Of a stretch of DNA of 64,000 nt, positions 1,519-43,291 are shown one piece after another. Under the pieces are notes generated by a model. It saw only the letters and a program-made list of their open reading frames with translations. It was not told the DNA's origin and made no database searches. The stretch lies in assembly GCA_034433695.1 (NCBI GenBank), contig DAOUAK010000038.1, forward strand, positions 2,758-66,757, given 5' to 3'. A program made the translations under genes and the position numbers. Source of the stretch: Chloroflexia bacterium (GTDB taxonomy: Bacteria; Chloroflexota; Chloroflexia; DTKN01). How positions within the stretch are numbered: the stretch's first letter is position 1; every line of letters begins with the position of its first letter.

Positions 1519-4413
1519 ATGAGCGGGAAAATCAGGGCGGTCCGTGTTTTGAGTCTCCTTGGGGCAATCGTCCCGCTCCTGAATCTCCTGGGGGCCGGCC
1601 AGGTGACTTCTGGGGCAGCCCGGCCGCCCGCCACCCTCGCCTTCGCAGCCCAGCCCGGCGGGCAACAGGGCCGGACCATCGAGATCCGTGCCGATACCTT
1701 CGGTCTGCCGCTCGCCAACGACGACCTGGCCCACCAGTATAACAAGCCCAGCGTCCGATTGACCCGAGGGGACAGCGCCCGCTTTTCGGTAACGATCGAG
1801 ACGGCGGGGGAATATACCATCGCCTTCGATGCCGCCGTGCCGGAGGAGGTGCTCGTCACTGCCCCGGAGGGTCAACTCCTTCTGGATGGTGCCCTGCCGG
1901 TCGAAGATGCCCGCCGCATCGTCTTCCCGCTTTTTTACCGCAGCCCGGCGGAAGAGTTTCCGCTCGACCGCTACGGCAACGAGACCCTTATCCCCGCAGT
2001 GCGCCTGGCGCGTTGGACCCAGGTCTATCTACGAGATGTCAACCTGAGCCGCAAGTACCCGCTGACCATCCACCTTTCCCAGGGCGAGCACGACTTTGAG
2101 TTTGTCCTGACCCGCGAGATCCTCCTTCTGGGCAGCATCTACCTCCGACCATTTTCGCCGGACATGCCGTATAGCGACTACCTTGCCCGGAAACCTGCCC
2201 AGGACTCTGTCGGGGTGCTGATCGAAATCGAGGCAGAAAGACCAAGTTACAAGAACGATATCTCCATCCGCCCTCTCTATGACCGCAGCCTGGAAGTCAC
2301 GCCCTACGACACCTATCGCCTGCTCCTGAACACCATCGGCGGGGAAAGCTGGCAACGCAGCGGCAGCGCACTCTACTACGAGGTAAAAGTACCGCAGGAC
2401 GGGATGTATCTTATCACCCTGCGGGTCCTCCAAAATACACGCAGTAACTTTGTCGTTTTCCGCCGCCTCACCATCAACGGAACCGTGCCCTTTGATGAGG
2501 CTAACGAAATACCGTTCGGCTATCACCCGGGATGGGAAAACGTCACCCTGCCCTATCGGGTGTACCTGCAACGGGGGACGAACGTCCTGGGGCTGGAGGT
2601 TACCACTTCCCCCTACGATGCCGCCATCAGGAACATCCGTCGCTCCATTGGGGACATCACGGCCCTCTCGCTGGAGGTCAAGCGCCTGACCGGCAACCAG
2701 GTGGACCGCTATCGGGAATGGGAAATTGCCGAATACATCCCCAACATCGAGGAGCGGCTGGATGACATCGCCGCCAGGCTCGCCGCCGACAAGGCCGCGC
2801 TACAGACCTTGAGCGGCGGGCTGAACTCGCAGGAGATCATGAACTACCAGATGGCCCTCGACAACATTCTCGTACTCCGGAACGACCCCAACAAAATCCC
2901 GGTGCGCATGAACCGCCTCTCCGAGGGGCCACAATCGGCGGCCCAACTGCTGGGCAATGTGCTCAGTGCCCTGCAGAAACAGCCGCTTATGCTGGACAAA
3001 ATCTACCTGCACTCGCCCGATGTCACGCCGCCAGAACCGCAGGTCTCGGCCTGGGAATCGGCGAGCGAGGGCATCAAGCGCTTCTTCCACTCCTTCACAC
3101 GCACCCCCTATCAATCCATCGGCGCGAGCGAGGGCGAAATCGAAGTCTGGGTCAACCGTCCCCGGCAGTATGTGGCCCTGATGCAGCAAATGGCCGATCG
3201 GTCTTTTACTCCACGGACGGGCATCGGCGTTGTATTCTCGCTCATGCCCAACGAATCGAAACTGGCCCTGGCCATCGCCGCCGACATCGAACCGGATGTG
3301 GTCCTGGGCCTCAGCACGAACATCCCCTATGAACTCGCCCTGCGCAACGCCCTGTACGATCTGCGCTCCTTTGAGGATTTCGATTCCTTCATCCGCATCT
3401 ATGCCCCCGGTTCGCTCCTGGGCTACATCATCAACGATTCGGTCTATGCCATCCCGGAGACGCAGGATTTCTGGGTGACGTTTTACCGCAAGGATATCCT
3501 GGATTCCCTTGGGCTGTCGGTCCCGCACACCTGGGATGAAGTCATCGCCATCTTGCCCGAACTGCAGCGTTATGGGATGAACTTTTACACCCCACTTTCA
3601 ACCGGCAGCGGCCTCAAGGGTTATCTCATCACGGCTCCTTATATCTGGAATTTCGGCGGCGCGTTATACAGTCCCGACGGCCTGAAGACCGGACTCGGCA
3701 GCGACGAATCCATCACCGCCATCAAATTCATGGCCGAACAATTCACCGTCTACGGGATGCCGCTCACCGCCGTCAGTTTTTACGACAGTTTCCGCAACGG
3801 CGAACTGCCGGTGGGCATCTCCAACGTGGAGACGTACATCAAACTGCGCACTGCCGCGCCCGAAATCGAAGGGCTGTGGGGAATCGACCTCTACCCGGCC
3901 ACCGTCCTGCCGGACGGGAGACAAAACCGTTACGCCACCGGCTCGGCGCAGACCTGCGTCATCCTCGCCGATACCGAAAGGCCGCAGGAAGCATGGGAAT
4001 TCCTGAAGTGGTGGATGTCCACCGAGACCCAGGTGGAGTACGAACGGCAACTCCTGATGAACTATGGCCCGGAATACCTGTGGTACACGGCCAACCTGGA
4101 AGCCTTCCGTTATCTGCCGATTCCCGAGGAGCACAAAGAGGTCATCCTCAAACAGTGGGAATGGCTTCAGGAGCCGGTCAAACTTCCCGGCACGTACATG
4201 CAGGAGCGCGAGTTAAGCAATGCCTGGAACCGGATCGTCTTCGACGGAGTCAACCCACGCGTAGCGATCGACAACGCCATTCTGACGATCAACCGTGAAA
4301 TGGCGCGCAAGATGGAGGAACTCGGTTACACCCGCAACGGCGTGCCGGTACGCGAGATTCGGGTGCCCACCATCGAGACCGTCCGCCGGTGGATGGAGGC
4401 AGCAGAGAAATGA
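1519..4413 (+). CDS. Giant (964 aa) extracellular solute-binding protein with an N-terminal CBM-like region fused to a family-1 SBP domain
   Basis: The N-terminus is hydrophobic. The N-terminal half contains two beta-sandwich-like segments ([19 protein letters not shown]). The C-terminal half (from about aa 540) has a typical sugar-SBP pattern ([32 protein letters not shown]...). Its stop overlaps the next start (ATGA). Confidence 0.75.
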
Positions 4414-30166: not shown

Positions 30167-32227
30167 ATGCAGAAGCAACCTTCACCCATTTTCCGCCCGA
30201 TCGCTACCCTGGGGAACGTCCTCCGCCGGGAGGTCCACCTCCTGGGACAGACCCTGGGCGATCCTTTCCTGGGCCTTTTGCTTCTGGGAACGGTTCTCCT
30301 GACCTTTCTGGCCGGCCAGGCCTTTCCCCCTTTCCGATTGGACGTCGGCGAGCAGCCGGATGAGGTCTACCTGAGCGGTTTTTACGAGCCGGAGAAGGCG
30401 GCCGGGGAGTCTTTCCGCTGGAGCACGGGAGAGGGTCGGCTGGACATTCCGGCCTCGGGCATGGTCCCCCTTCGCCTCGACCTGCGCCTCTCTGCCCCCA
30501 GGCCGGCCGAAGTTCCCCCACCACGCCTGAGCCTGGCCGGGAACGGCCACCTCCTCCTGGAGACAACCGTTGCCCCCGCTCCCCGGATTTACTCCCTTCT
30601 TCTTCCGGCGGAGGCCTCTTCCTTGGGAAATCTGGAGTTACGGTGGCGCAGCGAAACGTTCTCCCCGGGTGAAAGCGATCCTCGGGTATTGGGATTTGCG
30701 CTAGATCACCTGGAGATATGGCGGGTGGGCCGGCCGCTCGTCCTCCTCCCTCCCGAAGTCTACCTCTGTTCCCTTGCCACGGTCTTCTTGGCCGTGCTTC
30801 TGGCGCGGCGGCTGGGCTGGCCACGCCCGGGTGCCCTGGGCGTGGGGTTCGTCTGCGCCCTGGCGCTGGCCGCGGCCCTGGCCTGGGCCCGCCCGCTCCT
30901 GGCACCGGGCCTGCCTTTCCTCCCCCTGGCCCTGGCCTGCTCCTGGCTCTTCCACGCCCTCCTCCGGCGGCCGTTCGAGCGTTGCTTCGTCCGCCTGGGG
31001 GGCGGACTGCCCCTTTTCGCTGAGCGCGCCCTCTGGAGCACGGCGCTTTTCTTTCTGGCCGTGCGTCTGGCCGGCTGCCTTCACCCGGCGATGGAAACAT
31101 GGGACCTCTGCTTCCACTTCCACCGCCTTCAGGATGTGGCCCGGGGCGAACCTTTCTTCACCATCACCTCCGGGGAATGGCGGGGCTTGCAGACTCTCTA
31201 CCTGCCCTCGTTCTACGTCGTCCTGGCCCCCCTCTGGGCCGTCTTCGGCGGCCGGCTGGTGCCGCTCCAGGTCGCCGCCGTCCTTCTGGATACCTCGTCT
31301 GCCCTTCTGGTAGCCTACCTGTCCTGCCGGTTGCTGGGGAGGAAGGCGACCTGGCCGGCCGCCTTCCTTTACCTGACCATGCCGCAGTCCTCCATCATCT
31401 TCTCCTGGGGCATCGTAGCCAACATCTTCGGTCAGTGGCTTTTCTTGCTCCTGCTGGCCTTTTTCTTTTCCCCGGCCGGGAGGCTATCCCGCCGGCCGGC
31501 CTGGCTTTTGGCCGCGGGACTCCTGACGCTGGTGTGGCTTTCCCACCCCGGCACGGTCCTTCTGACGGCCGTCCTGCTGGGCGGCCTGCTTTTCCTGGCC
31601 CGGTTTTTCCCCGAGGGCCAAGGCCTTCCCCGGCCGGCCGTGGGGCGCTGGGTTGGGGTGGCGTTGGGGGCGCTGGCGCTTGTTACGGCGCTCTACTACA
31701 GCCACTTTGCCCCGACGATGTGGGCGGCGCTCCAGGAGATGGGGCAGGGAAGCAATCTGGAGCAGCCCCGCCATGGGGGAATCCTCATCCGTGGGCCGGT
31801 TACAGACCCCGACCTGGGCCTGCGGGCGGTCGAGGTCCAGGGTTGGGGACAGGCCATCCTGGCCGGAGCGGAAGAAGTGGCCGCCGAGGCCCGGGCTTAC
31901 TACGATGTCTGGCCACTTCTCCTGGCTCTGGCCGCGTTGCCCGGCCTGGCCTGGCAGCGGCGAGTTCCTGCCGTCCGGCTGCTGGGGCTGGCCTTTACAA
32001 CGGCCCTGTTTTTTGCTATGATTGGGTTGGTCTGGAATCTGTATGTGCGGTACATGTACTTTCTGCTGCCCTTTGTGGCGCTGGGAGGGGCCTGGTGGCC
32101 GGCCCACTGGAGCCGGCGTGGCCTGGCCGGCCGGTTGACGGCGCTCCTTACGGGGCTTTATTTGCTCTTCTTGGGGCTATCTTTCTGGGCCGGCCATGTG
32201 CTCTATTACTCGGCCGGTTGCCGTTGA
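30167..32227 (+). CDS. Polytopic membrane protein, putative GT-C-fold (family 39/83-like) glycosyltransferase
   Basis: 686 aa with at least 10 hydrophobic segments. It is followed directly by a polyprenyl-phosphate-type GT2. The family assignment is tentative. Confidence 0.55.
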
Positions 32228-36946: not shown

Positions 36947-37332
36947 GTACCCGATATACCCCGACGCTGCTGGAGCACTTTACCCACCCCCGCCACGTAG
37001 GGATGCTGGAGGATGCCGACGCTTCCGGCCAGGGAGGGGGAGGACCGCTCTGTCCGGAGGATATGGCCTACGTCTGGATCAAGGTCCGCGAGGGCCGCAT
37101 CGTCGAAATCGGCCACAAGACGATGGGCTGCCCGGTCGCCATTGCCTCCAGCAGTCTGACCTGCTCCCTGGCCGAGGGCAAAACCCTGGAGGAGGCGCTC
37201 CAGATCACCCCGGAGGTGGTCATCGAGGCCCTGGGAGGCGTCCCGGAGCGCAAAGCCGATTCGGTGGTGGCTCCGGAAGCCCTGCGCCGGGCCATCGAAT
37301 CGTACCTGGCCTCCCATGTCTCGGGTGAATGA
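36943..37332 (+). CDS. IscU/NifU-N-like Fe-S scaffold homologue (atypical Cys set)
   Basis: The GTG overlaps the sufS-like stop (GTGA). Motifs HPRHVGML, LCPEDM and MGCPVAIASSSL are present. The usual HC near the C-terminus reads DS here. Confidence 0.7.
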   Translation: MSTRYTPTLLEHFTHPRHVGMLEDADASGQGGGGPLCPEDMAYVWIKVREGRIVEIGHKTMGCPVAIASSSLTCSLAEGKTLEEALQITPEVVIEALGGVPERKADSVVAPEALRRAIESYLASHVSGE

Positions 37333-37344
37333 ACCTCAAATCCT

Positions 37345-37367
37345 ATCGAGGGCCCAGGGCCCTCGAT
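37345..37367 (+). terminator. Hairpin terminator after the IscU-like gene
   Basis: ATCGAGGGCC (37345-37354), loop CAG, then GGCCCTCGAT (37358-37367). The stem is a perfect 10 bp. The downstream T tract is poor. Confidence 0.55.
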
Positions 37368-37405
37368 CTTCGGGTGCCGCCCTCCAACTGTGTAACCTAT
37401 CACAT

Positions 37406-37434
37406 TTGACAAAGGGAAGACTTCGTGGTATAGT
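37406..37434 (+). promoter_or_regulatory. Near-consensus sigma-70 promoter with extended -10
   Basis: TTGACA (37406-37411), a 17-nt spacer, then TGgTATAGT (-10 at 37429-37434). Confidence 0.7.
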
Positions 37435-37440
37435 TTATTT

Positions 37441-37582
37441 ATCCCCGTTCGGCCTGGCCGGCGGGGTTGGAGGTTGCGTTTCGATGGACGAGGATTATCA
37501 ACGTAGTCGGGGACTGTGCGAGTCCGGGTGCGGGGCATCCGACCCGGGGGAGGTGGCTATGCCGATAGCCACCTGATCTTTT
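37441..37582 (+). promoter_or_regulatory. Structured 5' leader ending in an intrinsic terminator (attenuator / candidate riboswitch) upstream of the MgtE-N/CBS-NRMT operon
   Basis: Local hairpins CCCCG...CGGGG and GGACU-GUGCG-AGUCC. The terminator is AGGTGGCTAT-GCCG-ATAGCCACCT (37551-37574) followed by GATCTTTT. Confidence 0.6.
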
Positions 37583-37719
37583 CCCCCGGTTCCCCCGCCT
37601 GAGGTCCCCCAGTCCCCTCCGAGATCGAAAGTACGCAAAACTTCAAAGCCATCTCATAGGATGTACAGGTGGAGTACCGGGTCCAGCCGTATGGGCCTGG
37701 GAACCACGGGAGGTGGACC

Positions 37720-38976
37720 GTGCCGTATGTCAGCACGCTCCTGGGGAAGCCTGTTACCGACGTGGAAGGCAACCGCGTCGGCCGGCTGCAGGACCTCGTT
37801 GCCTCGCTCCGGGGTGCCATGCCCCATCCCATGATTGTGGCCCTGGCCGTCCGGAATCCCGAGGGCCTTCGCCTGGTCCCCATTTCTTCCGTGGCCGTCC
37901 TGATCGCTCCGGCCATTCCCCTCCGCCATCGCCTGCGGGATATTCCCTCTTACACCCCGGGCGAGCAGGAACTGTACCTGGCCCGCGATGTGCTCGATAA
38001 GCAGATCATTGATACCCGTGGAGCGCGCGTGGTGCGGGTCAACGACCTGGAACTGGCCCGGATCAACAACCACTTTTATGTGGCCAATGTAGACGTCGGT
38101 GGGCTGGGACTTTTGCGACGCCTGGGACTTGCAGGCCCGGTCGAGAAGATCGCCCGCTGCCTGAAGCGCCCGCTCCGATCCGTCAGCATCTCCTGGGACG
38201 CGGTCGAACTCCTCCCTGGCCAGAACTCGATGCGCCTGAAGGTGCCGGGGGAGAAACTGGCCGAACTGCACCCGGCCGACCTGGCCGAAATCATCAGCGA
38301 CCTCAGCCGCGTTGAGGGAAGCCGGTTGATCGAGACACTCGATGTCAAGACCCTGGCCGATACCCTGGAGGAGATCGAGCCGGACTTCCAGGCCAGCCTG
38401 ATCGAAGCCATGCCCGACGAGAAGGTGGCCGATGTGCTGGAGGAAATGGCCCCCGACGAGGCGGCGGACCTTCTGGCCGAACTGCCCCAGGAACGCAGCC
38501 GGGAACTCCTGGAACTGATGGAGGATGAGGAGGCCGAGGACGTTCGGAAACTGCTGGCCTATCCGGAGGACACGGCCGGCGGCATTATGAACACCGAGTT
38601 CGTCGCCATCCGCCCCAACCTGACGGCGGAGGAGGCCATCGCCGTCCTGCGGGAGACGGCCCACGAGGCCGAGACCATCTATTACGTGTACGTTACGGAT
38701 GAGGAGGGCCATCTCCTGGGGGTGTTCTCCCTGCAGGACCTGGTGCTGGCCCAGCCCAAGACGCCGGTAACCGACTTTATGCACCACCGCGTGGTCAACG
38801 TCCATCTGCGCGACAGCCAGGACAAGGTGGCCCAGATCGTGGCCAAGTACAATTTGCTGGCCGTACCGGTGGTGGACGATGAGGGTCGGATGCACGGCAT
38901 CGTCACCGCCGATGACGCCCTGGATAAGATCATTCCCACCGCCTGGAAGAAACGCCTGCCGAAGATGTGGGGGTAA
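37720..38976 (+). CDS. Soluble protein with two PRC-barrel-like domains, an MgtE N-domain and a CBS pair, and no MgtE TM domain
   Basis: GTG 37720 lies 4 nt after GGGAGGTGG. The MgtE_N pattern is HPADLAEIISDL...EEMAPDEAADLLAELP...LLAYPEDTAGGIMNTEF. A CBS pair follows. The protein ends about 15 aa after the CBS pair (...IVTADDALDKIIPTAWKKRLPKMWG) and has no hydrophobic segments. Confidence 0.8.
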   Translation: MPYVSTLLGKPVTDVEGNRVGRLQDLVASLRGAMPHPMIVALAVRNPEGLRLVPISSVAVLIAPAIPLRHRLRDIPSYTPGEQELYLARDVLDKQIIDTRGARVVRVNDLELARINNHFYVANVDVGGLGLLRRLGLAGPVEKIARCLKRPLRSVSISWDAVELLPGQNSMRLKVPGEKLAELHPADLAEIISDLSRVEGSRLIETLDVKTLADTLEEIEPDFQASLIEAMPDEKVADVLEEMAPDEAADLLAELPQERSRELLELMEDEEAEDVRKLLAYPEDTAGGIMNTEFVAIRPNLTAEEAIAVLRETAHEAETIYYVYVTDEEGHLLGVFSLQDLVLAQPKTPVTDFMHHRVVNVHLRDSQDKVAQIVAKYNLLAVPVVDDEGRMHGIVTADDALDKIIPTAWKKRLPKMWG

Positions 38977-38978
38977 AG

Positions 38979-40235
38979 ATGACGTTCGGGCAACGTTTCA
39001 GGCCGTTCTGGGTACGCCTCCTGGCCTTCCTGTCGGTCATTGGGCCGGGCATCATCACCGCGAATGTGGATAACGATGCCGGCGGCATCACGACCTATTC
39101 CGTCGCCGGTGCCCACTATGGCTACGATCTGCTGTGGATGATGCCGCTGGTCGCGCTGGCCCTGATCGTGGTGCAGGAGATGAGTGCCCGGCTGGGAGTG
39201 GTCACCGGACGGGGGCTGGCCGCGCTGATTCGGGAGAACCTGGGGGCGCGCCTGACGGCGGTGGTCATCGGCATCCTGGTGCTGGCCAATCTGGCCAACA
39301 CGGTGAGCGAATTTGCCGGCATCGCCGCCGGCATGGAGATCTTCGGGGTCAGCAAGTACATTTCGGTGCCGCTGGCCGGCCTGGCGGTGTGGCTGCTCGT
39401 CATCCGGGGCAACTACCGTTCGGTGGAAAAGGTCTTCCTGGTGGCCAGCGGACTTTACCTTTGCTATGTGGCCTCGGGCCTCCTGGCCCGGCCCCGGTGG
39501 GAAGAGGTCCTCCACGCCCTTGTCCGGCCCTCCTTCCGCCTGGAGAGCGGCTTTATGACCATGGCCATCACCATCGTGGGAACGACAATCGCCCCCTGGA
39601 TGCAGTTCTACCAGCAGTCGGCCATCGCCGACAAGGGGTTGAAGCCGGCCGATTACCGTTACGAGCGGCTGGATGTGATCGTGGGCTCCCTCTTTGCCGT
39701 CTTTGTGGCGGCCTTTATCACCATTTCCTGCGCTGCCACCATCTACGGCCGCGCTCACATCGAGACGGCCCAGGACGCTGCCCGGGCGCTGGGTCCGCTG
39801 GCCGGCCCCTACGCTTCCACGCTCTTTGCCTTCGGCCTCCTCAATGCCTCGCTTTTTTCGGCAGCCATCTTGCCCCTCTCCACCGCCTATGTGGTCTGCG
39901 AAGCCTTCGGATGGGAATTGGGCCTGGGCCACCGGTGGAAGGAAGCCCCCATCTTCTTCGGGACTTTTACGGCCCTGATCGTCCTGGGAGGCGGGGTGGT
40001 CCTTTTGCCGATCCCTTCGCTGGTCCAGGCGATGATGTTCAGCCAGACCCTCAACGGCATCCTTCTGCCGCTCGTCCTGGTGGTGATGCTCCGCCTGGTC
40101 AACGACCGTCGCCTGATGGGCCATTTCGTCAATGGTCGGGTGCTCAATGCCTTCTCCTGGGCCTCGGCGGGATTGGTCATCCTGCTCACGGCCCTTCTGG
40201 TGCTCAGCCCCTTTCTGCCCGTTCCGGGCACTTGA
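38979..40235 (+). CDS. NRAMP-family transporter with a non-canonical metal site (NRMT-like, putative Mg2+ transporter)
   Basis: ATG 38979 follows GGGGGT (an alternative ATG is at 38967). The fold is NRAMP-like (GPGIITANVDNDAGG...YGYDLLWMM). TM1 reads D-A-G-G instead of D-P-G-N. TM6 reads GTTIAPW instead of GATVMPH. Confidence 0.75.
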   Translation: MTFGQRFRPFWVRLLAFLSVIGPGIITANVDNDAGGITTYSVAGAHYGYDLLWMMPLVALALIVVQEMSARLGVVTGRGLAALIRENLGARLTAVVIGILVLANLANTVSEFAGIAAGMEIFGVSKYISVPLAGLAVWLLVIRGNYRSVEKVFLVASGLYLCYVASGLLARPRWEEVLHALVRPSFRLESGFMTMAITIVGTTIAPWMQFYQQSAIADKGLKPADYRYERLDVIVGSLFAVFVAAFITISCAATIYGRAHIETAQDAARALGPLAGPYASTLFAFGLLNASLFSAAILPLSTAYVVCEAFGWELGLGHRWKEAPIFFGTFTALIVLGGGVVLLPIPSLVQAMMFSQTLNGILLPLVLVVMLRLVNDRRLMGHFVNGRVLNAFSWASAGLVILLTALLVLSPFLPVPGT

Positions 40236-40249
40236 TTCGGAGGAGGAAG

Positions 40250-41968
40250 ATGGCCCGTCCTCGCCGTTTTGCGCCGTTCCTTCCCCCGGGCCCCCTCTTC
40301 GATGTGGGGGACCTGGCGGTGCTCGTCGCCCTGGCCGGCATCCTTTACCTGGGCGTGCGGGTAGCGATGGGCACGCCGGCGATCTTGCCGGGGCCGGAGA
40401 TTCGCCGGGAGGCCTGGGCCTTGCCCGTCTATGCCCTCTTCTCTCTGGGTCGGATGCTGGCGGCCTATATTCTCTCCCTGTCCTTCAGCCTCCTTTACGC
40501 CCGTATCGCCGCCCGGCGGGCGCTGGCCGGCCAGGTCATGCTTCCCCTCCTGGATGTATTGCAATCGGTGCCGATCCTTTCCTTCCTGCCGGTGGTGCTC
40601 CTCGGACTGTCGGCCGTCCTGCCTTCCGGTCTGGCGGCCGAACTGGCTGCCATCGTCCTCATCTTCACCAGCCAGGCCTGGAACCTGACCTTTTCCTTCT
40701 ACCAGGCCCTCCAGACCATCCCCAAGGAACTGGACGAAGCCGCCCGCACCTTTCGCCTGTCCGACTGGCTACGCTTTCGCCGACTGGAACTGCCCTTTGC
40801 CGCACCGGGCCTGATCTGGAACACCATCATGTCCTGGGCCGGCGGCTGGTTCTTCCTGATGGCCGCCGAATCCTACACAGTGGGAGAGCGGGACTTTCGC
40901 CTGCCCGGCCTGGGGGCCTACCTCCAGGAAGCCGCCCAGGCCGGAGACGTGCAGGCCCTTCTCCTGGGGGTAAGCGCCCTGGTCGTCCTGATCGTCCTCC
41001 TGGATCAACTGCTCTGGCGGCCGCTTTTGGCCTGGGGAGAACGCTTCCAACTGGAGATGGTCGAATCGCAAGAGCCGACCTCCTCCTGGCTCTATAGCCT
41101 CCTCCAGCGTTCACGTCTTCTTTCCGGACTCCAGCGCCGGCTGTTCCGGCCGCTCCTGGAATGGCTGGACATGCGTTTTTCCCGGCCGCCCCGGGAGATT
41201 GCGGAGGGGAATACGCCTTTACTGCGCCGGCTGGCCGTGTATACCCTGGGGGGTATCCTGGCCGGCGGCCTCCTCTATGGTGCCTTTTGGGCCGGCGGCT
41301 GGCTCCTTTCGTTGCCGGTAGCCACCTGGGGCGAGATCGCCCTGGGTACACTGGCTACTTTCCTGCGAGTCGCCGTGGCTATCGGCCTTTCCCTGCTCTG
41401 GACGGTGCCATTGGGCATCCTGATCGGCACCCGTCCTCGCCTGGCCGCCCTATTGCAGCCGGTGGTGCAAATTCTGGCTTCCGTCCCGGCCACGGCCCTC
41501 TTCCCCATCTTTCTCCTGCTCCTTTTGCGCCTGCCGGCCGGGTTACAAATTTCCTCCCTTCTCCTTCTGATGACCGGAAGCCAGTGGTACCTCCTCTTCA
41601 ATGTCATCGCCGGCGCCTCGGCCATCCCCCAGGACCTGGAATTCAGCACCAAACTCCTGGGAGTACACGGCTGGGGGCGATGGCGCATCCTCCTTCTGCC
41701 CGGCATCTTTCCCTACTTGGTGACCGGGATGATCACCGCCAGCGGCGGTGCCTGGAACGCCAGCATCGTCGCCGAATATGTGGTCTTTGGCGGGCAGAAG
41801 CAGAGCGTCACCGGCCTGGGGGGGCTGATCTCCCTGGCTACGGAAGAAGGAAACTATCCCCTCCTCCTGGCTGCGACGCTTACGATGATCGTTACCGTCG
41901 TGTTGCTCAACTGGCTCTTCTGGCGCCGGCTTTACCGCCGGGCCGAGGAACAGTATCGGATGGATTAG
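40250..41968 (+). CDS. ABC transporter permease, fused double permease (NitT/TauT-like)
   Basis: ATG follows GGAGGAGGAAG. Two tandem binding-protein-dependent permease modules are present (EAA-like ELDEAARTFRLSDWLRFRRLELP, and a second module near the C-terminus). Confidence 0.75.
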   Translation: MARPRRFAPFLPPGPLFDVGDLAVLVALAGILYLGVRVAMGTPAILPGPEIRREAWALPVYALFSLGRMLAAYILSLSFSLLYARIAARRALAGQVMLPLLDVLQSVPILSFLPVVLLGLSAVLPSGLAAELAAIVLIFTSQAWNLTFSFYQALQTIPKELDEAARTFRLSDWLRFRRLELPFAAPGLIWNTIMSWAGGWFFLMAAESYTVGERDFRLPGLGAYLQEAAQAGDVQALLLGVSALVVLIVLLDQLLWRPLLAWGERFQLEMVESQEPTSSWLYSLLQRSRLLSGLQRRLFRPLLEWLDMRFSRPPREIAEGNTPLLRRLAVYTLGGILAGGLLYGAFWAGGWLLSLPVATWGEIALGTLATFLRVAVAIGLSLLWTVPLGILIGTRPRLAALLQPVVQILASVPATALFPIFLLLLLRLPAGLQISSLLLLMTGSQWYLLFNVIAGASAIPQDLEFSTKLLGVHGWGRWRILLLPGIFPYLVTGMITASGGAWNASIVAEYVVFGGQKQSVTGLGGLISLATEEGNYPLLLAATLTMIVTVVLLNWLFWRRLYRRAEEQYRMD

Positions 41969-41980
41969 GGGAGGAAACCA

Positions 41981-43291
41981 ATGGCCCAGAACGGGGTTCT
42001 TCTGGAATTGCGCAACATCCGCCAGGTCTACGGACGCGGCCCTCGTGCCATCGTCGCCGTGGAGGGGGTTAATCTAACGGTGCGGCGGGGCGAGTTCGTA
42101 GCCCTGCTGGGACCTTCCGGCTGCGGAAAAAGCACCCTCCTGCGCATCATCGCCGGCCTGAACGTGCCTACGGAAGGGGAGGTGCTCTACCACGGCCGGC
42201 CGTTGCGGGGAGTCAACCCTCATGCTACCATCGTCTTCCAGACCTTTGCCCTTTTCCCCTGGCTGACGGTGCTCGAAAACGTCGAGGTGGCCCTCCAGGC
42301 CCGGGGCATCCCCTTGCCCGAGCGCCGGGAGCGGGCCCTGGCCCTCCTGGACAAGGTTGGTCTGGATGGCTTTGAAAACGCCTATCCCCGAGAACTTTCG
42401 GGGGGGATGCGTCAGAAGGTGGGTTTTGCCCGGGCCATGGCCGTCGAGCCGGAACTTTTGTGCCTGGACGAACCGTTTTCTGCCCTGGATGTGCTTAGCG
42501 CCGATGCCCTGCGGGGCGAACTCGTCGAACTGTGGACCGGAGGCCAGATTCCCACCCAGGCCATCATTCTGGTTACCCACAACATCGAGGAGGCCGTCTT
42601 CCTGGCCGACCGCATCGTGGTGATGGAGACGCGACCGGGGCGCATCGCCGCCGAGGTGGTGGTCGGTCTCCCCCATCCCCGCCAGCGCAAGGGAGAGGAT
42701 TTCCTGACCACCGTGGATCGGGTCTATGCGGCGGTGGCCGGCCAGACCCAGCCGCCGGCCGTGGAACTGGGCACGGCCCCCGGCGAGCCAGGCCGGACGC
42801 GGGCCCTGCCCCCGGCCTCCGTCAGTGCCCTCTCCGGGCTGATCGAGCACCTGGACGAAGAGGTGGGCAACCGGGAAGACCTCTACCGCCTGGCCGACGA
42901 CCTGCGCATGGAGATCGATGAACTCTTGCCGGTGGTGGAGGCCGGGGAACTGCTCAATTTCCTCCGGGTGGACCAGGGCGATGTCATCTTGACGCCGCTG
43001 GGAGAGACCTTCGCCGAGGCCAGCATCCTGGCCCGTAAGGAAATCTTTGCCTCCCGTGCCCGCCGCATCCCGCTCATCCGCTGGCTCCTGAAGGGGCTGC
43101 GGGCCGCCCCGGAGGGCCGGGTGCCGCGCCGGGTCTTCCAGGATGTCCTGGAGTGGGAGTTTACCCCGGAGGAGGCGAAGGTACAGATGGATCAGGCCAT
43201 CGCCTGGGGGCGCTACGGCGAACTCTTCGGCTACGACGACGACCGGGACCTGCTCTACCTGGAGACGAACGGCTCGGGATCGGCCGCCTGA
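41981..43291 (+). CDS. ABC transporter ATP-binding protein (NitT/TauT-like) with a C-terminal extension of about 170 aa (AAA-associated-domain-like)
   Basis: Walker [10 protein letters not shown], signature LSGGMRQKV, Walker [13 protein letters not shown]. The C-terminal extra domain contains [23 protein letters not shown]. Confidence 0.85.

What the first reader, a model, noticed from the sequence alone, without database searches (positions are those of the whole stretch)
37406..37719. Consensus promoter plus a roughly 135-nt structured leader with an intrinsic terminator upstream of a putative Mg2+ transport operon, with no visible M-box
**Elements seen, in order.**
1. A near-perfect promoter: TTGACA, 17-nt spacer, TGgTATAGT.
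2. A GC-rich leader with several local hairpins.
3. A clean terminator: AGGTGGCTAT-GCCG-ATAGCCACCT followed by GAUCUUUU, at 37551-37582.
4. A C-rich tract (CCCCC x3, ending in CCCCUCC at about 37611-37619) that could pair with the downstream RBS GGGAGGUGG (37707-37715).

**Interpretation.** Promoter, aptamer-sized leader, terminator, then transporter genes is the standard layout of a transcription-attenuating riboswitch.

**Why it may be new.** Mg2+ transporter genes, including NRAMP-related ones in clostridia as I recall, are often controlled by the M-box. I could not find the conserved M-box blocks (GUUAGGUGAGGCUCC..., ...GUGCUAAAGCUCUACG), and the leader is shorter than an M-box. It may be a different metal-sensing or protein-dependent leader.
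Basis: partly seen in the sequence, partly recalled or inferred. Interest (0 to 1): 0.55.

Follow-up and report, generated by a model that had tools for sequence, protein, structure and literature searches.

The report
Giant-hairpin leader before magnesium-transporter operon
A strong promoter is followed by a ~280-nt untranslated leader, found in only seven uncultured Chloroflexota sequences, that folds into one long G-rich/C-rich hairpin and may carry a short upstream reading frame. It probably controls a magnesium-uptake operon that one relative controls with the known M-box riboswitch, so it is a real but rare regulatory RNA whose mechanism is unresolved.

Summary
In detail: promoter, hairpin-plus-U-run, C-rich tract and absence of an M-box are all present. 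No Rfam family matches the window or six related leaders.

The downstream genes are a PRC-MgtE_N-CBS protein and an NRMT-type magnesium transporter (best solved match EleNRMT). An orthologous operon in another Chloroflexota MAG carries a true M-box.

The leader is conserved in seven distinct sequences. It is always upstream of this operon, with at least three different upstream contexts among the five loci where that DNA was seen, so it is a genuine cis-acting leader.

What is conserved is not an aptamer followed by a terminator. It is:
- an invariant block, AUGGACRAGGAU;
- a ~110-nt hairpin with a G-rich 5' arm and a C-rich 3' arm;
- an invariant GGAGGU near the tip;
- a stop codon (UGA/UAA/UAG) in fixed register.

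The U-run "terminator" exists only in the window's subgroup.

My best reading (about 0.35) is a translation-sensing uORF leader analogous to Salmonella mgtL/corL. A direct riboswitch (about 0.15) and a protein- or RNase-targeted hairpin (about 0.25) remain open.

It is a new variant of a known kind, of moderate interest, and needs experiments.

The parts
37406..37434 (+). Sigma-70-type promoter: TTGACA, 17 nt, TGgTATAGT (extended -10). The predicted TSS is about 37441.
   Evidence: 11 of 12 positions plus TG. It is the best site in 20 kb. Promoters sit at the equivalent position in L049, L078, L090, L088, L003 and L083. The TSS is inferred, not mapped.
37443..37466 (+). 5' hairpin P0 (CCCCG...CGGGG).
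   Evidence: Present in the MFE and conserved in the window subgroup. L088, L003 and L083 instead have about 95 nt of other GC-rich hairpins here.
37469..37473 (+). GGAGG, a Shine-Dalgarno-like element 10 nt upstream of the conserved AUG.
   Evidence: Predicted anti-SD duplex of -11 to -15 kcal/mol in window, L090, L049 and L078. It is weaker in L088 (-8.9), L083 (-7.8) and L003 (-5.8).
37483..37495 (+). Invariant block GAUGGACRAGGAU. The 20-mer GAUGGACGAGGAUUAUCAAC is identical in 5 of the 7 leaders.
   Evidence: Alignments. No conserved pairing partner was found.
37484..37576 (+). Candidate upstream ORF of 30 codons (MDEDYQRSRGLCESGCGASDPGEVAMPIAT*). It spans exactly the G-rich arm and the tip hairpin.
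   Evidence: The AUG is invariant in 7 of 7 leaders, and the frame stays open to the hairpin tip in 7 of 7. Openness is not significant, however (P = 0.5-0.7 in shuffles), and substitutions are non-synonymous.
37509..37617 (+). Giant irregular hairpin. The outer helix is GGGGACUG (37509-37516) paired with CAGUCCCC (37610-37617). The G-rich 5' arm runs 37509-37560 and the C-rich 3' arm 37583-37617.
   Evidence: MFE -67 kcal/mol, z = -4.3. All seven relatives fold to the same architecture.
37467..37646 (+). Full extended structure. It includes a basal helix (37467-37488 paired with 37618-37646) that sequesters the uORF's SD and AUG in the full-length RNA.
   Evidence: MFE. One compensatory change, U-A to G-C, occurs between window and L049 (read). 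The helix is clear only in the window subgroup.
37549..37555 (+). GGAGGUG, an SD-like motif in the 5' arm of the tip. GGAGGU is invariant in 7 of 7 leaders.
   Evidence: With the following AUG CCG it resembles the main gene's initiation region (sequence).
37551..37582 (+). Tip hairpin (10 bp, loop GCCG) plus GAUCUUUU: terminator-like or a pause site.
   Evidence: It forms in the MFE of the nascent RNA in window, L090, L049 and L078. L088, L003 and L083 have no U-run.
37574..37576 (+). Stop codon in fixed register: GGAGGUN, then 3 nt, then 5 codons, then the stop.
   Evidence: UGA in 5 leaders, UAA in L003 and UAG in L088, all at the same distance from GGAGGU.
37577..37660 (+). C-rich, G-poor stretch (the C-arm plus the downstream A-rich spacer), with the composition of a possible Rho-loading (rut) region.
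   Evidence: The 80 nt after the stop are 38-41% C and 14-24% G in all seven leaders. The rut function is an inference.
37677..37700 (+). Hairpin just upstream of the main RBS (CCGGGUCCA / UGGGCCUGG).
   Evidence: MFE. An analogous hairpin is visible at the equivalent position in several relatives (L049, L078, L088, L083) but is not clear in L003, and its sequence differs between them.
37708..37722 (+). Main RBS GGGAGGUGG and the GUG start of the PRC-MgtE_N-CBS gene.
   Evidence: The database protein P0001 has the same start. Pfam assignment. Anti-SD duplex of -15.6 kcal/mol.
37720..40235 (+). Regulated genes: the PRC-MgtE_N-CBS protein (37720-38976) and an NRMT-type Nramp (38967-40235).
   Evidence: Pfam. 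The best solved match is EleNRMT 7qia, E = 1e-117, with identical NDAGG and GTTIAPWM motifs. The NRMT motif DxxG-TxxA is taken from PMC8806188.

Best explanation
The element is a clade-specific cis-regulatory leader of an NRMT magnesium-uptake operon. I think it senses translation rather than binding a ligand directly.

Shown:
- A strong promoter drives a ~279-nt 5' UTR.
- Its core is an invariant AUGGACRAGGAU block followed by a ~110-nt hairpin made of a G-rich 5' arm and a C-rich 3' arm.
- A reading frame starting at the invariant AUG covers the G-arm and ends at the hairpin tip, never entering the C-arm.

Inferred mechanism:
- A ribosome translating this uORF keeps the G-arm unpaired, which leaves the C-rich, G-poor 3' arm single-stranded.
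- That arm could then load Rho, or pair with the main RBS, and shut the operon off.
- When uORF translation fails early, the G-arm masks the C-arm and the operon is read through.
- The acidic N-terminus MD(E/K)D would make early abortion more likely at low Mg2+. This is the intrinsic-ribosome-destabilization logic described for MgtL.
- The outcome would be ON at low Mg2+, the same sign as the M-box found on an orthologous operon.

In the window's subgroup, the tip hairpin plus UCUUUU adds an intrinsic terminator or pause site. The direction of regulation is not established: a simple model in which the ribosome melts the terminator would give the opposite sign.
For: Cis-leader status:
- Seven distinct homologous leaders, all directly upstream of the same operon.
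- Upstream neighbours differ: NifU in window and L090, MoeA in L078, a divergent gene in L083, and unrelated DNA in L049.
- No second copy elsewhere in the window or in 90 loci.

Magnesium link:
- The transporter is EleNRMT-like.
- The ortholog in L013 has an M-box scoring 130.6 bits.
- mgtE-fragment/nramp operons are often M-box regulated (PMC4072509).

Hairpin:
- z = -2.5 to -4.3 in six of the leaders (L090 was not z-scored).
- 87% of cells are paired against 82% in shuffles (1 of 500 shuffles reaches this) and 50-68% when the partner columns are slid. Nine pairs show double changes.
- The three substitutions in the tip's 3' arm between window and L090 are all U-A to U.G.

uORF:
- AUG is invariant in 7 of 7 leaders.
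- An SD lies 2-8 nt upstream with -11 to -15 kcal/mol in 4 of 7.
- The frame ends within the tip in 7 of 7.
- The register-fixed stop uses all three stop codons.
- The first six residues contain 3-4 D/E/P in all seven.

Precedent:
- The uORFs mgtL, corL and mgtM couple Mg2+-dependent translation to unmasking of a Rut site (PMC12360218).
- N-terminal DE/P peptides abort translation more at low Mg2+ (bioRxiv 10.1101/2021.02.02.429294).

C-arm composition: C is 38-41% and G 14-24% over 80 nt in all seven.
Against: - An open frame of this length is expected by chance in this GC-rich sequence (P = 0.5-0.7 per sequence).
- Substitutions in the uORF are almost all non-synonymous: 6 of 6 between window and L090, and 8 of 9 between window and L049.
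- The frame relative to GGAGGU shifts by 1-2 nt in L003 and L083, so their uORFs stop 9-18 nt earlier.
- The SD is weak in L003, L083 and L088.
- The conserved AUG block shows no synonymous variation, which fits an RNA-level constraint equally well.
- MD(E/K)D is only a modest DE/P cluster.
- Rho dependence, translation and Mg2+ response are all untested.
- In the window subgroup the default fold of the nascent RNA is the terminator-like tip hairpin. Under a pure intrinsic-termination model that gives OFF when translation fails, which is the wrong sign.
- Only seven sequences from about four lineages are available, so covariation statistics are weak.
Confidence: 0.35

Rival explanations
1. It is a direct ligand-sensing riboswitch of a new class (Mg2+, another divalent cation or a metabolite). 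The aptamer would be embedded in the giant hairpin and the invariant 5' block. Ligand binding would stabilise the tip hairpin or the whole stem and so control termination or RBS access. It would functionally replace the M-box in this clade.
For: - The leader sits where an orthologous operon carries an M-box.
- No known family matches.
- There are invariant nucleotides outside helices: AUGGACRAGGAU, GGAGGU and the asymmetric loop 3' of the tip.
- The hairpin is supported by modest covariation.
- A terminator-embedded aptamer has precedent in the HMP-PP/thiS riboswitch (PMC6478431, listed).
Against: - The conserved architecture is a single irregular hairpin, with no multi-helix junction or pseudoknot detected.
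- Internal loops and helix registers are not conserved. C-runs slip against G-runs, and MAFFT gives two different alignments of the 3' arm.
- The terminator U-run is missing in 3 of 7 leaders.
- The most conserved block starts with AUG, is preceded by an SD in most members, and opens a frame ending at the tip. That is the pattern used to reclassify riboswitch candidates as uORFs (PMC11109978).
- Seven sequences are too few for a statistically sound covariation test.
Confidence: 0.15
2. It is a structural 5'-UTR element acted on by a trans factor. The ~40-bp giant hairpin would be a processing or stability determinant, for example an RNase III substrate. Alternatively, the invariant single-stranded block with its GGA repeats would be the binding site of an RNA-binding regulator. 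Any Mg2+ control would be exerted elsewhere, for example by the MgtE_N-CBS protein gating the transporter.
For: - The long, nearly continuous duplex of 40-44 pairs is conserved as a shape rather than as sequence.
- The conserved unpaired 13-20-nt block has no identified pairing partner.
- It contains two GGA motifs, and there is a third in the upstream SD-like element (sequence).
- Many orthologs at 70-77% protein identity have short, unrelated leaders. RNA-level sensing is therefore dispensable for this operon.
- The MgtE-like fragment is proposed to provide feedback at the protein level (PMC4072509).
Against: - No candidate binding protein is encoded next to the leader.
- PRC, MgtE_N and CBS domains are not known RNA binders (my own knowledge).
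- This reading does not explain the strict G-arm/C-arm strand asymmetry, the register-fixed stop codon or the invariant AUG.
- RNase III cleavage cannot be predicted from sequence.
Confidence: 0.25
3. It is an independent small RNA gene. The promoter at 37406 and the tip terminator at 37582 would define a ~142-nt sRNA that acts in trans. The operon would then be transcribed from a separate promoter or by read-through.
For: There is a strong promoter and, in the window subgroup, a terminator-like hairpin whose default nascent fold includes the tip hairpin. A G-rich single-stranded arm would be available in the short RNA.
Against: - Conservation and predicted pairing extend well past the U-run into the C-arm and the basal helix.
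- No promoter-like site lies between 37583 and 37719.
- The element is never found away from this operon.
- Three members lack the terminator.
Confidence: 0.05
4. It is chance, or a leaky terminator belonging to the upstream suf/nifU operon, with no dedicated function.
For: Terminator-like patterns are not enriched over shuffles in this genome.
Against: - The upstream operon has its own hairpin at 37347-37370.
- A near-consensus promoter lies between that hairpin and the leader.
- The leader travels with the downstream operon into loci whose upstream genes differ.
- It is 83% identical in L049 and clearly homologous in L003, L083 and L088, whose transporter-associated proteins are only 71-76% identical.
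Confidence: 0.02

Closest known systems
Salmonella/E. coli Mg2+-transporter leaders with uORFs (mgtA-mgtL, corA-corL, mgtCBR-mgtM; Rfam Mg_sensor for mgtA)
   Same: Both are long 5' leaders of a Mg2+ importer. Both have a short uORF near the 5' end with an N-terminus rich in D/E/P (MgtL is MEPDPT; here it is MDEDYQ or MDKD.P). The uORF overlaps one strand of alternative structures, and a C-rich, G-poor segment can be masked or exposed. The expected sign is ON at low Mg2+.
   Different: There is no sequence or covariance-model similarity. The host is a different phylum. Here there is a single giant hairpin instead of the stem-loops A/B/C. There is no proline run. Rho dependence, uORF translation and Mg2+ response are all untested here.
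M-box (ykoK) Mg2+ riboswitch, RF00380
   Same: It occupies the same genomic niche. A true M-box precedes the orthologous PRC-MgtE_N-CBS/NRMT operon in L013 and probably in L014. It also precedes many mgtE-fragment/nramp operons. It is typically followed by an intrinsic terminator.
   Different: There is no cmscan signal even at E <= 10. The three-helix architecture and the conserved blocks are absent. The core here is one hairpin of about 110 nt.
uORF-type attenuator candidates from comparative genomics (for example the fthC and ilvB-II uORFC motifs of Narunsky et al. 2024)
   Same: The layout is the same: a 5' hairpin, then a conserved purine-rich SD-like region plus AUG, then a hairpin carrying the in-frame stop codon, in some members terminator-like.
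   Different: Those motifs show coding-type conservation or regulatory codon runs. Here substitutions are non-synonymous, two members shift frame, and no regulatory codon run is evident.
Terminator-embedded aptamer riboswitches (HMP-PP / thiS motif)
   Same: A simple hairpin doubles as both the sensor and the terminator (PMC6478431).
   Different: Those elements are much smaller and have a defined ligand pocket and a conserved terminator. Here the U-run is not conserved and no pocket-like conserved loop is evident.
mgtE motif (SRC-65-1) of Thioalkalivibrio
   Same: It is another rare, clade-restricted, non-M-box candidate upstream of a magnesium-transporter gene. It has a large imperfect stem.
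   Different: It is a multi-stem model (P1-P4) with the main SD and AUG at the base of P4, and it comes from gammaproteobacteria. I did not compare it at sequence level because its alignment is not held here.

Membership tests
M-box riboswitch (RF00380) | A covariance-model score at or above the gathering threshold of 44 bits. | tested here: not met
   No hit at gathering score in the window. No M-box hit at E <= 10 in 37300-37800. None in six related leaders at E <= 5. Positive control: L013 scores 130.6 bits.
M-box riboswitch (RF00380) | The conserved sequence blocks (GUUAGGUGAGGC... and ...GUGCYAAAGCYCWAC) about 140 nt apart. | tested here: not met
   A regex allowing 2 mismatches found the pair only in L013 and L014. 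It was absent from the window and from the leader-bearing loci held at that point.
Salmonella mgtA leader / Mg_sensor (RF01056) | Sequence and structure homology to the mgtA leader. | tested here: not met
   The searches covered all 4227 Rfam families. Only chance-level hits to unrelated families appeared.
Mg2+-sensing uORF leaders (functional class, mgtL/corL-like) | A translated uORF with a conserved start, an SD and an in-frame stop upstream of a Mg2+ transporter. | tested here: inconclusive
   The AUG is present in 7 of 7 leaders. The SD is good in 4 of 7 and weak in 3. The in-frame stop is at a fixed site in 5 of 7 and lies 9-18 nt earlier in the other 2. Frame openness is not significant. 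Translation is not testable here.
Mg2+-sensing uORF leaders (functional class, mgtL/corL-like) | uORF translation changes leader folding and exposes a Rut site, giving Rho-dependent termination. | not testable with these tools
   Only the composition can be checked: C is 38-41% and G 14-24% over 80 nt. The geometry also fits, since the uORF covers the G-arm that masks the C-arm.
Intrinsic (Rho-independent) terminator | A GC-rich hairpin immediately followed by a U-run. | tested here: inconclusive
   In the window there is a 10-bp stem followed by GAUCUUUU, that is 4 U after a 4-nt spacer. L049 has 4 U and L078 has 3 U. L088, L003 and L083 have no U-run directly after the tip. The feature is therefore not family-wide.
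Riboswitch (generic) | A conserved ligand-binding aptamer, meaning a covarying multi-helix fold with conserved unpaired nucleotides, plus an expression platform. | tested here: inconclusive
   A single hairpin has modest covariation support and a conserved unpaired block. No junction or pseudoknot was detected. Ligand binding is not testable here.
yybP-ykoY (Mn2+), NiCo, and other metal riboswitches in Rfam | A covariance-model match. | tested here: not met
mgtE motif SRC-65-1 (Thioalkalivibrio) | A match to the published P1-P4 consensus. | not tested
Only the textual description was read.

The most novel reading that the evidence does not exclude
The leader is a previously unrecorded class of metal-responsive RNA that took over the role of the M-box in a small Chloroflexota clade. 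It would sense Mg2+, or another cation, directly through a giant G-arm/C-arm hairpin with a terminator-embedded sensor. A slightly less radical version is that it is the first mgtL-like, ribosome-destabilization-based Mg2+ sensor outside Proteobacteria, evolved independently.
Probability: 0.13. Interest if true: 0.75.

Novelty: new variant of a known kind. Interest (0 to 1): 0.4.

Why it matters
Magnesium importers are a textbook case of RNA-level control: the M-box in many bacteria, and the mgtA, corA and mgtC leaders in enterobacteria.

Here the same NRMT operon is preceded by an M-box in one Chloroflexota lineage, by short plain leaders in many others, and by this unrelated 180-nt structure in a third. 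That gives a natural replacement series for asking how cells re-invent Mg2+ sensing.

If the uORF reading is right, sensing Mg2+ through translation of an acidic N-terminal leader peptide would extend beyond Proteobacteria. If the RNA senses directly, it is a new riboswitch class.

Either way the element is an unrecorded RNA family. Its rarity (seven sequences, all from uncultured organisms) limits both the statistics and experimental access.

Tried and rejected
1. A metagenome-wide scan with the pattern ATGGACNAGGATN{5,11}GTANTNGGGG returned 20 loci. All were chance matches in unrelated, mostly coding DNA. The pattern was also too strict, since L078 has GTAGCC there.

2. I looked up the neighbourhoods of the next-closest proteins. 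P0056, P0077, P0112 and P0011 have unrelated short leaders. Only P0002, P0013, P0122 and P0151 added family members.

3. The small hairpin GAUUAU-CAAC-GUAGUC (37493-37508) is in the window's MFE but is not conserved in L078, L088 or L003. Rejected as part of the motif.

4. I searched for a partner for the invariant block AUGGACRAGGAU. L088 has GUCCAU downstream, and the window pairs it with 37618-37629. No partner is consistent across members.

5. A G-quadruplex in the G-arm is possible in the window subgroup, which has four G-runs of at least 3. L083 has only two. Rejected as a conserved feature.

6. uORF openness as evidence: dinucleotide shuffles keep 23 codons open 48-71% of the time, so it is uninformative.

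7. Pairing of the C-tract with the main RBS gives only 5-6 bp, against about -67 kcal/mol for the G-arm. The spacing to the RBS varies from 141 to 282 nt. It is kept only as a conditional alternative.

8. Strand asymmetry of the fold: the forward strand is more stable than the reverse complement in 6 of 7 leaders, but often by only 1-4 kcal/mol. This is weak evidence.

9. The weak minus-strand Rfam hit Scr5676 (23 bits against a gathering score of 56) reflects only the palindromic hairpin.

10. MAFFT aligns the 3' arm in two different ways (and 45/66). I therefore did not build a covariance model, and I treat the per-pair counts as approximate.
Full report
**1. What is in the sequence**

- The promoter is TTGACA (37406-37411), 17 nt, then TGgTATAGT (37426-37434). 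It matches 11 of 12 positions plus the extended -10 TG.
- The hairpin is AGGTGGCTAT-GCCG-ATAGCCACCT (37551-37574), followed by GATCTTTT.
- Three C5 runs follow, ending at about 37620.

In the 20 kb around the site this is the best promoter-like match. Terminator-like patterns are not enriched there (15 found against 13 +/- 3.7 expected), although this stem is among the three best.

The upstream operon encodes a creatininase-family protein, SufS-like and NifU-like proteins. It ends at 37332 and has its own hairpin at 37347-37370. The promoter therefore starts a new transcription unit.

The predicted TSS is about 37441 (inferred). The main gene starts with GUG at 37720, behind the RBS GGGAGGUGG at 37708-37716. 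The database protein P0001 uses the same start. The 5' UTR is thus about 279 nt, of which the part up to the U-run is about 142 nt.

**2. The downstream genes**

Pfam assigns 37720-38976 to PRC + MgtE_N + 2xCBS, and 38967-40235 to Nramp.

The Nramp protein's best solved relative is the magnesium transporter EleNRMT (7qia), at E = 1e-117, against about 1e-23 for MntH proteins. It shares the NDAGG and GTTIAPWM segments exactly. These carry the NRMT-specific DxxG-TxxA site (PMC8806188).

Operons combining an MgtE cytoplasmic fragment with NrmT are known and are often preceded by M-box riboswitches (PMC4072509). "Putative Mg2+ transport operon" is therefore well founded.

**3. Known RNA families**

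- cmscan of the whole window at gathering thresholds finds nothing.
- At E <= 10 on 37300-37800 it gives only a minus-strand Scr5676 match (23 bits against a gathering score of 56) and two miRNA models, which are chance hits on a hairpin.
- Six related leader loci give nothing in the leader at E <= 5.
- As a positive control, the orthologous operon in L013 (an Anaerolineales MAG, 66% protein identity) is preceded by an M-box scoring 130.6 bits (regex match also in L014).

The absence of an M-box here is real, and the niche is one that an M-box can occupy.

**4. Relatives of the leader**

A genome scan with the MgtE_N-CBS protein gave 57 loci, nearly all Chloroflexota. Only L049 (83% identity over about 300 nt) and, weakly, L003 shared the leader.

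Two searches of the 5.8-billion-protein collection and neighbourhood look-ups added the following:
- L078-L082, one sequence from five samples;
- L083;
- L088;
- L090, 96% identical and with the same synteny as the window.

Orthologs of similar protein identity (70-77%: L001, L002, L004, L005, L084-L086, L089) have short, unrelated leaders behind a similar promoter. A profile search of 90 loci plus the window finds no further copy. My metagenome pattern scan returned only chance matches.

The family therefore has seven distinct sequences from about four lineages. It is always directly upstream of this operon, while the upstream neighbours differ: NifU, MoeA, a divergent gene, or unrelated DNA. 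That establishes a dedicated cis-leader. It excludes a leaky upstream terminator.

**5. What is conserved**

The alignments show these features.

(a) An invariant block, (G/A)AUGGACRAGGAU. The 20-mer GAUGGACGAGGAUUAUCAAC is identical in five sequences, including L088, which has otherwise diverged.

(b) GGGG(A/G)(C/U)UG opens a long hairpin that is closed by CAG(U/C)CCC. The fifth pair runs A-U (window), G.U (L088) and G-C (L003).

(c) A 5' arm that is 46-52% G, and a 3' arm plus following sequence that is 38-41% C and only 14-24% G.

(d) An invariant GGAGGU near the tip.

(e) A stop codon exactly 3 nt plus 5 codons after GGAGGUN in all seven. It is UGA five times, UAA in L003 and UAG in L088.

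Every member folds on its own into one irregular hairpin of 40-44 pairs, at -56 to -68 kcal/mol. The six that were tested against shuffles give z = -2.5 to -4.3. The hairpin persists in the MFE of the complete leaders.

On the six-sequence alignment the consensus 35-pair structure has these counts:
- 87% of cells are paired, against 82% in column shuffles (1 of 500 shuffles reaches this) and 50-68% when the partners are slid.
- Nine pairs show changes on both sides.
- The covariation score is 0.32 against 0.23 in shuffles.

Between window and L090, the three substitutions in the tip's 3' arm are all U-A to U.G.

The support is real but modest. G-runs can slip against C-runs, and MAFFT aligns the 3' arm in two ways.

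**6. What is not conserved**

- The region between the TSS and the AUG block is one hairpin (37443-37466) in the window subgroup. In L088, L003 and L083 it is about 95 nt of different hairpins. There is no common multi-helix "aptamer".
- The tip hairpin plus U-run exists in window, L090, L049 and L078 (UCUUUU, UCUUUU, UUUU, GUUU), where it is the default fold of the nascent RNA. L088, L003 and L083 have no U-run after the tip.
- Intrinsic termination is therefore a subgroup feature at most.
- The C-tract's partner is the G-arm. Its complementarity to the main RBS is 5-6 bp, and the distance to the RBS varies from 141 to 282 nt.

**7. The upstream ORF question**

The invariant AUG (37484) opens a frame that stays open across the G-arm in all seven leaders and ends within the tip. 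In five it ends at the register-fixed stop. In L003 and L083 it ends 9-18 nt earlier, after a 1-2-nt frame shift.

In favour of a translated uORF:
- A GGAGG lies 10 nt upstream in the window subgroup. The predicted anti-SD duplex is -11 to -15 kcal/mol, against about -15.6 for the main RBS. It is weaker in L088, L083 and L003.
- The first six residues are MD(E/K)D-type, with 3-4 D/E/P in every member.
- The stop codon varies among all three stop codons.
- This layout is the one used to reclassify riboswitch candidates as uORF elements (PMC11109978).

Against a coding constraint:
- Such an open frame is expected by chance (P = 0.5-0.7 per sequence).
- Six of six substitutions between window and L090, and eight of nine between window and L049, are non-synonymous.
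- The AUG block shows no synonymous variation.

If it is translated, only the act of translation, and perhaps the first few residues, matters.

**8. Mechanism**

Three Mg2+-transporter leaders in Salmonella use uORFs (mgtL, corL, mgtM). Their Mg2+-dependent translation refolds the leader and unmasks a Rut site for Rho (PMC12360218). MgtL's N-terminal EPDP aborts translation more often at low Mg2+, by intrinsic ribosome destabilization. This is a general property of N-terminal DE/P clusters (bioRxiv 10.1101/2021.02.02.429294).

The geometry here fits that logic closely:
- The candidate uORF covers exactly the G-arm.
- It stops at the tip and never enters the C-arm.
- The C-arm has rut-like composition.
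- It is masked only when the G-arm is free of ribosomes.

I therefore favour a translation-sensing leader (confidence about 0.35). Replete Mg2+ would allow uORF translation, expose the C-arm, and shut the operon off through Rho, or through the C-arm or the tip's CCACCU pairing with the RBS. Low Mg2+ would cause early abortion, hairpin formation and read-through.

All of these steps are inferred.

There is one unresolved tension. In the window subgroup the tip hairpin plus U-run would, as an efficient intrinsic terminator, give OFF when translation fails. It may instead act as a pause site or a weak terminator.

**9. Rivals**

- A direct riboswitch (about 0.15) is not excluded. The niche, the lack of any known family, the conserved unpaired nucleotides and the precedent of terminator-embedded aptamers (PMC6478431) speak for it. 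The single-hairpin architecture, slipping registers and non-conserved terminator speak against it.
- A hairpin targeted by RNase III, or a protein site on the GGA-rich block (about 0.25), explains the shape conservation but not the strand asymmetry or the stop codon.
- An independent sRNA (about 0.05) and chance or an upstream terminator (about 0.02) are unlikely, for the reasons given above.

**10. Verdict**

The element is an unrecorded, clade-restricted leader family of a known general kind, 5' leader attenuation of a magnesium importer.

It is a new variant rather than a member of the M-box or Mg_sensor families, both of which fail their sequence and structure tests. Interest is moderate (0.4). 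It is a neat natural replacement of the M-box and possibly a convergent mgtL-like sensor. However, it rests on seven sequences from uncultured bacteria, and its mechanism is unresolved.

Noticed in passing
L013:715-891 (and L014:~3568-3744): A true M-box riboswitch (RF00380, 130.6 bits) precedes the orthologous PRC-MgtE_N-CBS/Nramp operon in an Anaerolineales MAG. After the M-box terminator there is a further ~250-nt leader with its own long-range pairing, GGGGGAGGAC...GUCCUCC. For L014 the evidence is only the regex match and near-identical sequence.
   Followed up: yes
L049:2038-2500 (equivalent to window 38048-40096 missing): In the MAG contig L049 the leader is intact (83% identical). A 2,050-bp deletion fuses codon ~113 of the MgtE_N-CBS gene in frame to the last ~45 codons of the Nramp gene, at a shared VND (RVND/LVND) microhomology. 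It is either a real inactivating deletion or an assembly artefact. Homology to the window resumes through the downstream ABC genes.
   Followed up: partly
window 38967-40235: The Nramp gene is an NRMT-type magnesium transporter. It matches EleNRMT (7qia) at E = 1e-117, with NDAGG and GTTIAPWM identical to that protein. Its start overlaps the stop of the MgtE_N-CBS gene by 10 nt (38967-38976), which suggests translational coupling.
   Followed up: yes
window ~40250-41968 and 41981-43291: An ABC-transporter permease (BPD_transp_1; 572 aa in L090) and an ATPase with a long C-terminal extension follow the Nramp gene on the same strand after a gap of only about 14 nt. The arrangement is conserved in L090 and L049. 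They may belong to the same transcription unit as the leader-controlled genes.
   Followed up: no
window 37546-37567 versus 37707-37728: The tip of the leader hairpin mimics the real translation-initiation region. The leader reads GGGAGGUGG-CU-AUGCCGAUA. The gene start reads GGGAGGUGG-ACC-GUGCCGUAU. This may be a remnant of a duplication of the gene's 5' end, or a functional decoy or standby site for ribosomes.
   Followed up: partly
L089:1860-2000: Another ortholog (83% protein identity to L001) has a short leader with a hairpin plus GUUUCCCCCC. It is followed by three G7 runs (GGGGGGG ACCACA GGGGGGG UGC GGGGGGG) abutting the RBS. This is a different C-run/G-run arrangement that could mask the RBS or form a G-quadruplex.
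   Followed up: no
window 37347-37370; also 31567-31586 (+) and 25338-25313 (-): The hairpin after the NifU-like gene has almost no U-run (tail CUUCGGGUG). The two best other terminator-like sites in 20 kb have tails of the form UGCUUUUCC and UGUUUUCC. Canonical long U-tracts seem rare in this genome, which complicates calling any intrinsic terminator from sequence.
   Followed up: no
L001:3835-4000: In the closest ortholog lacking the leader (76% protein identity), a consensus promoter (TTGACA-17-TACAAT) is followed almost immediately by a terminator-like hairpin, AGAGUGGCC-UCUGGG-GGCCACUCU-UUGAGUUU. About 150 nt of leader come after it. This is an unrelated solution at the same position.
   Followed up: no
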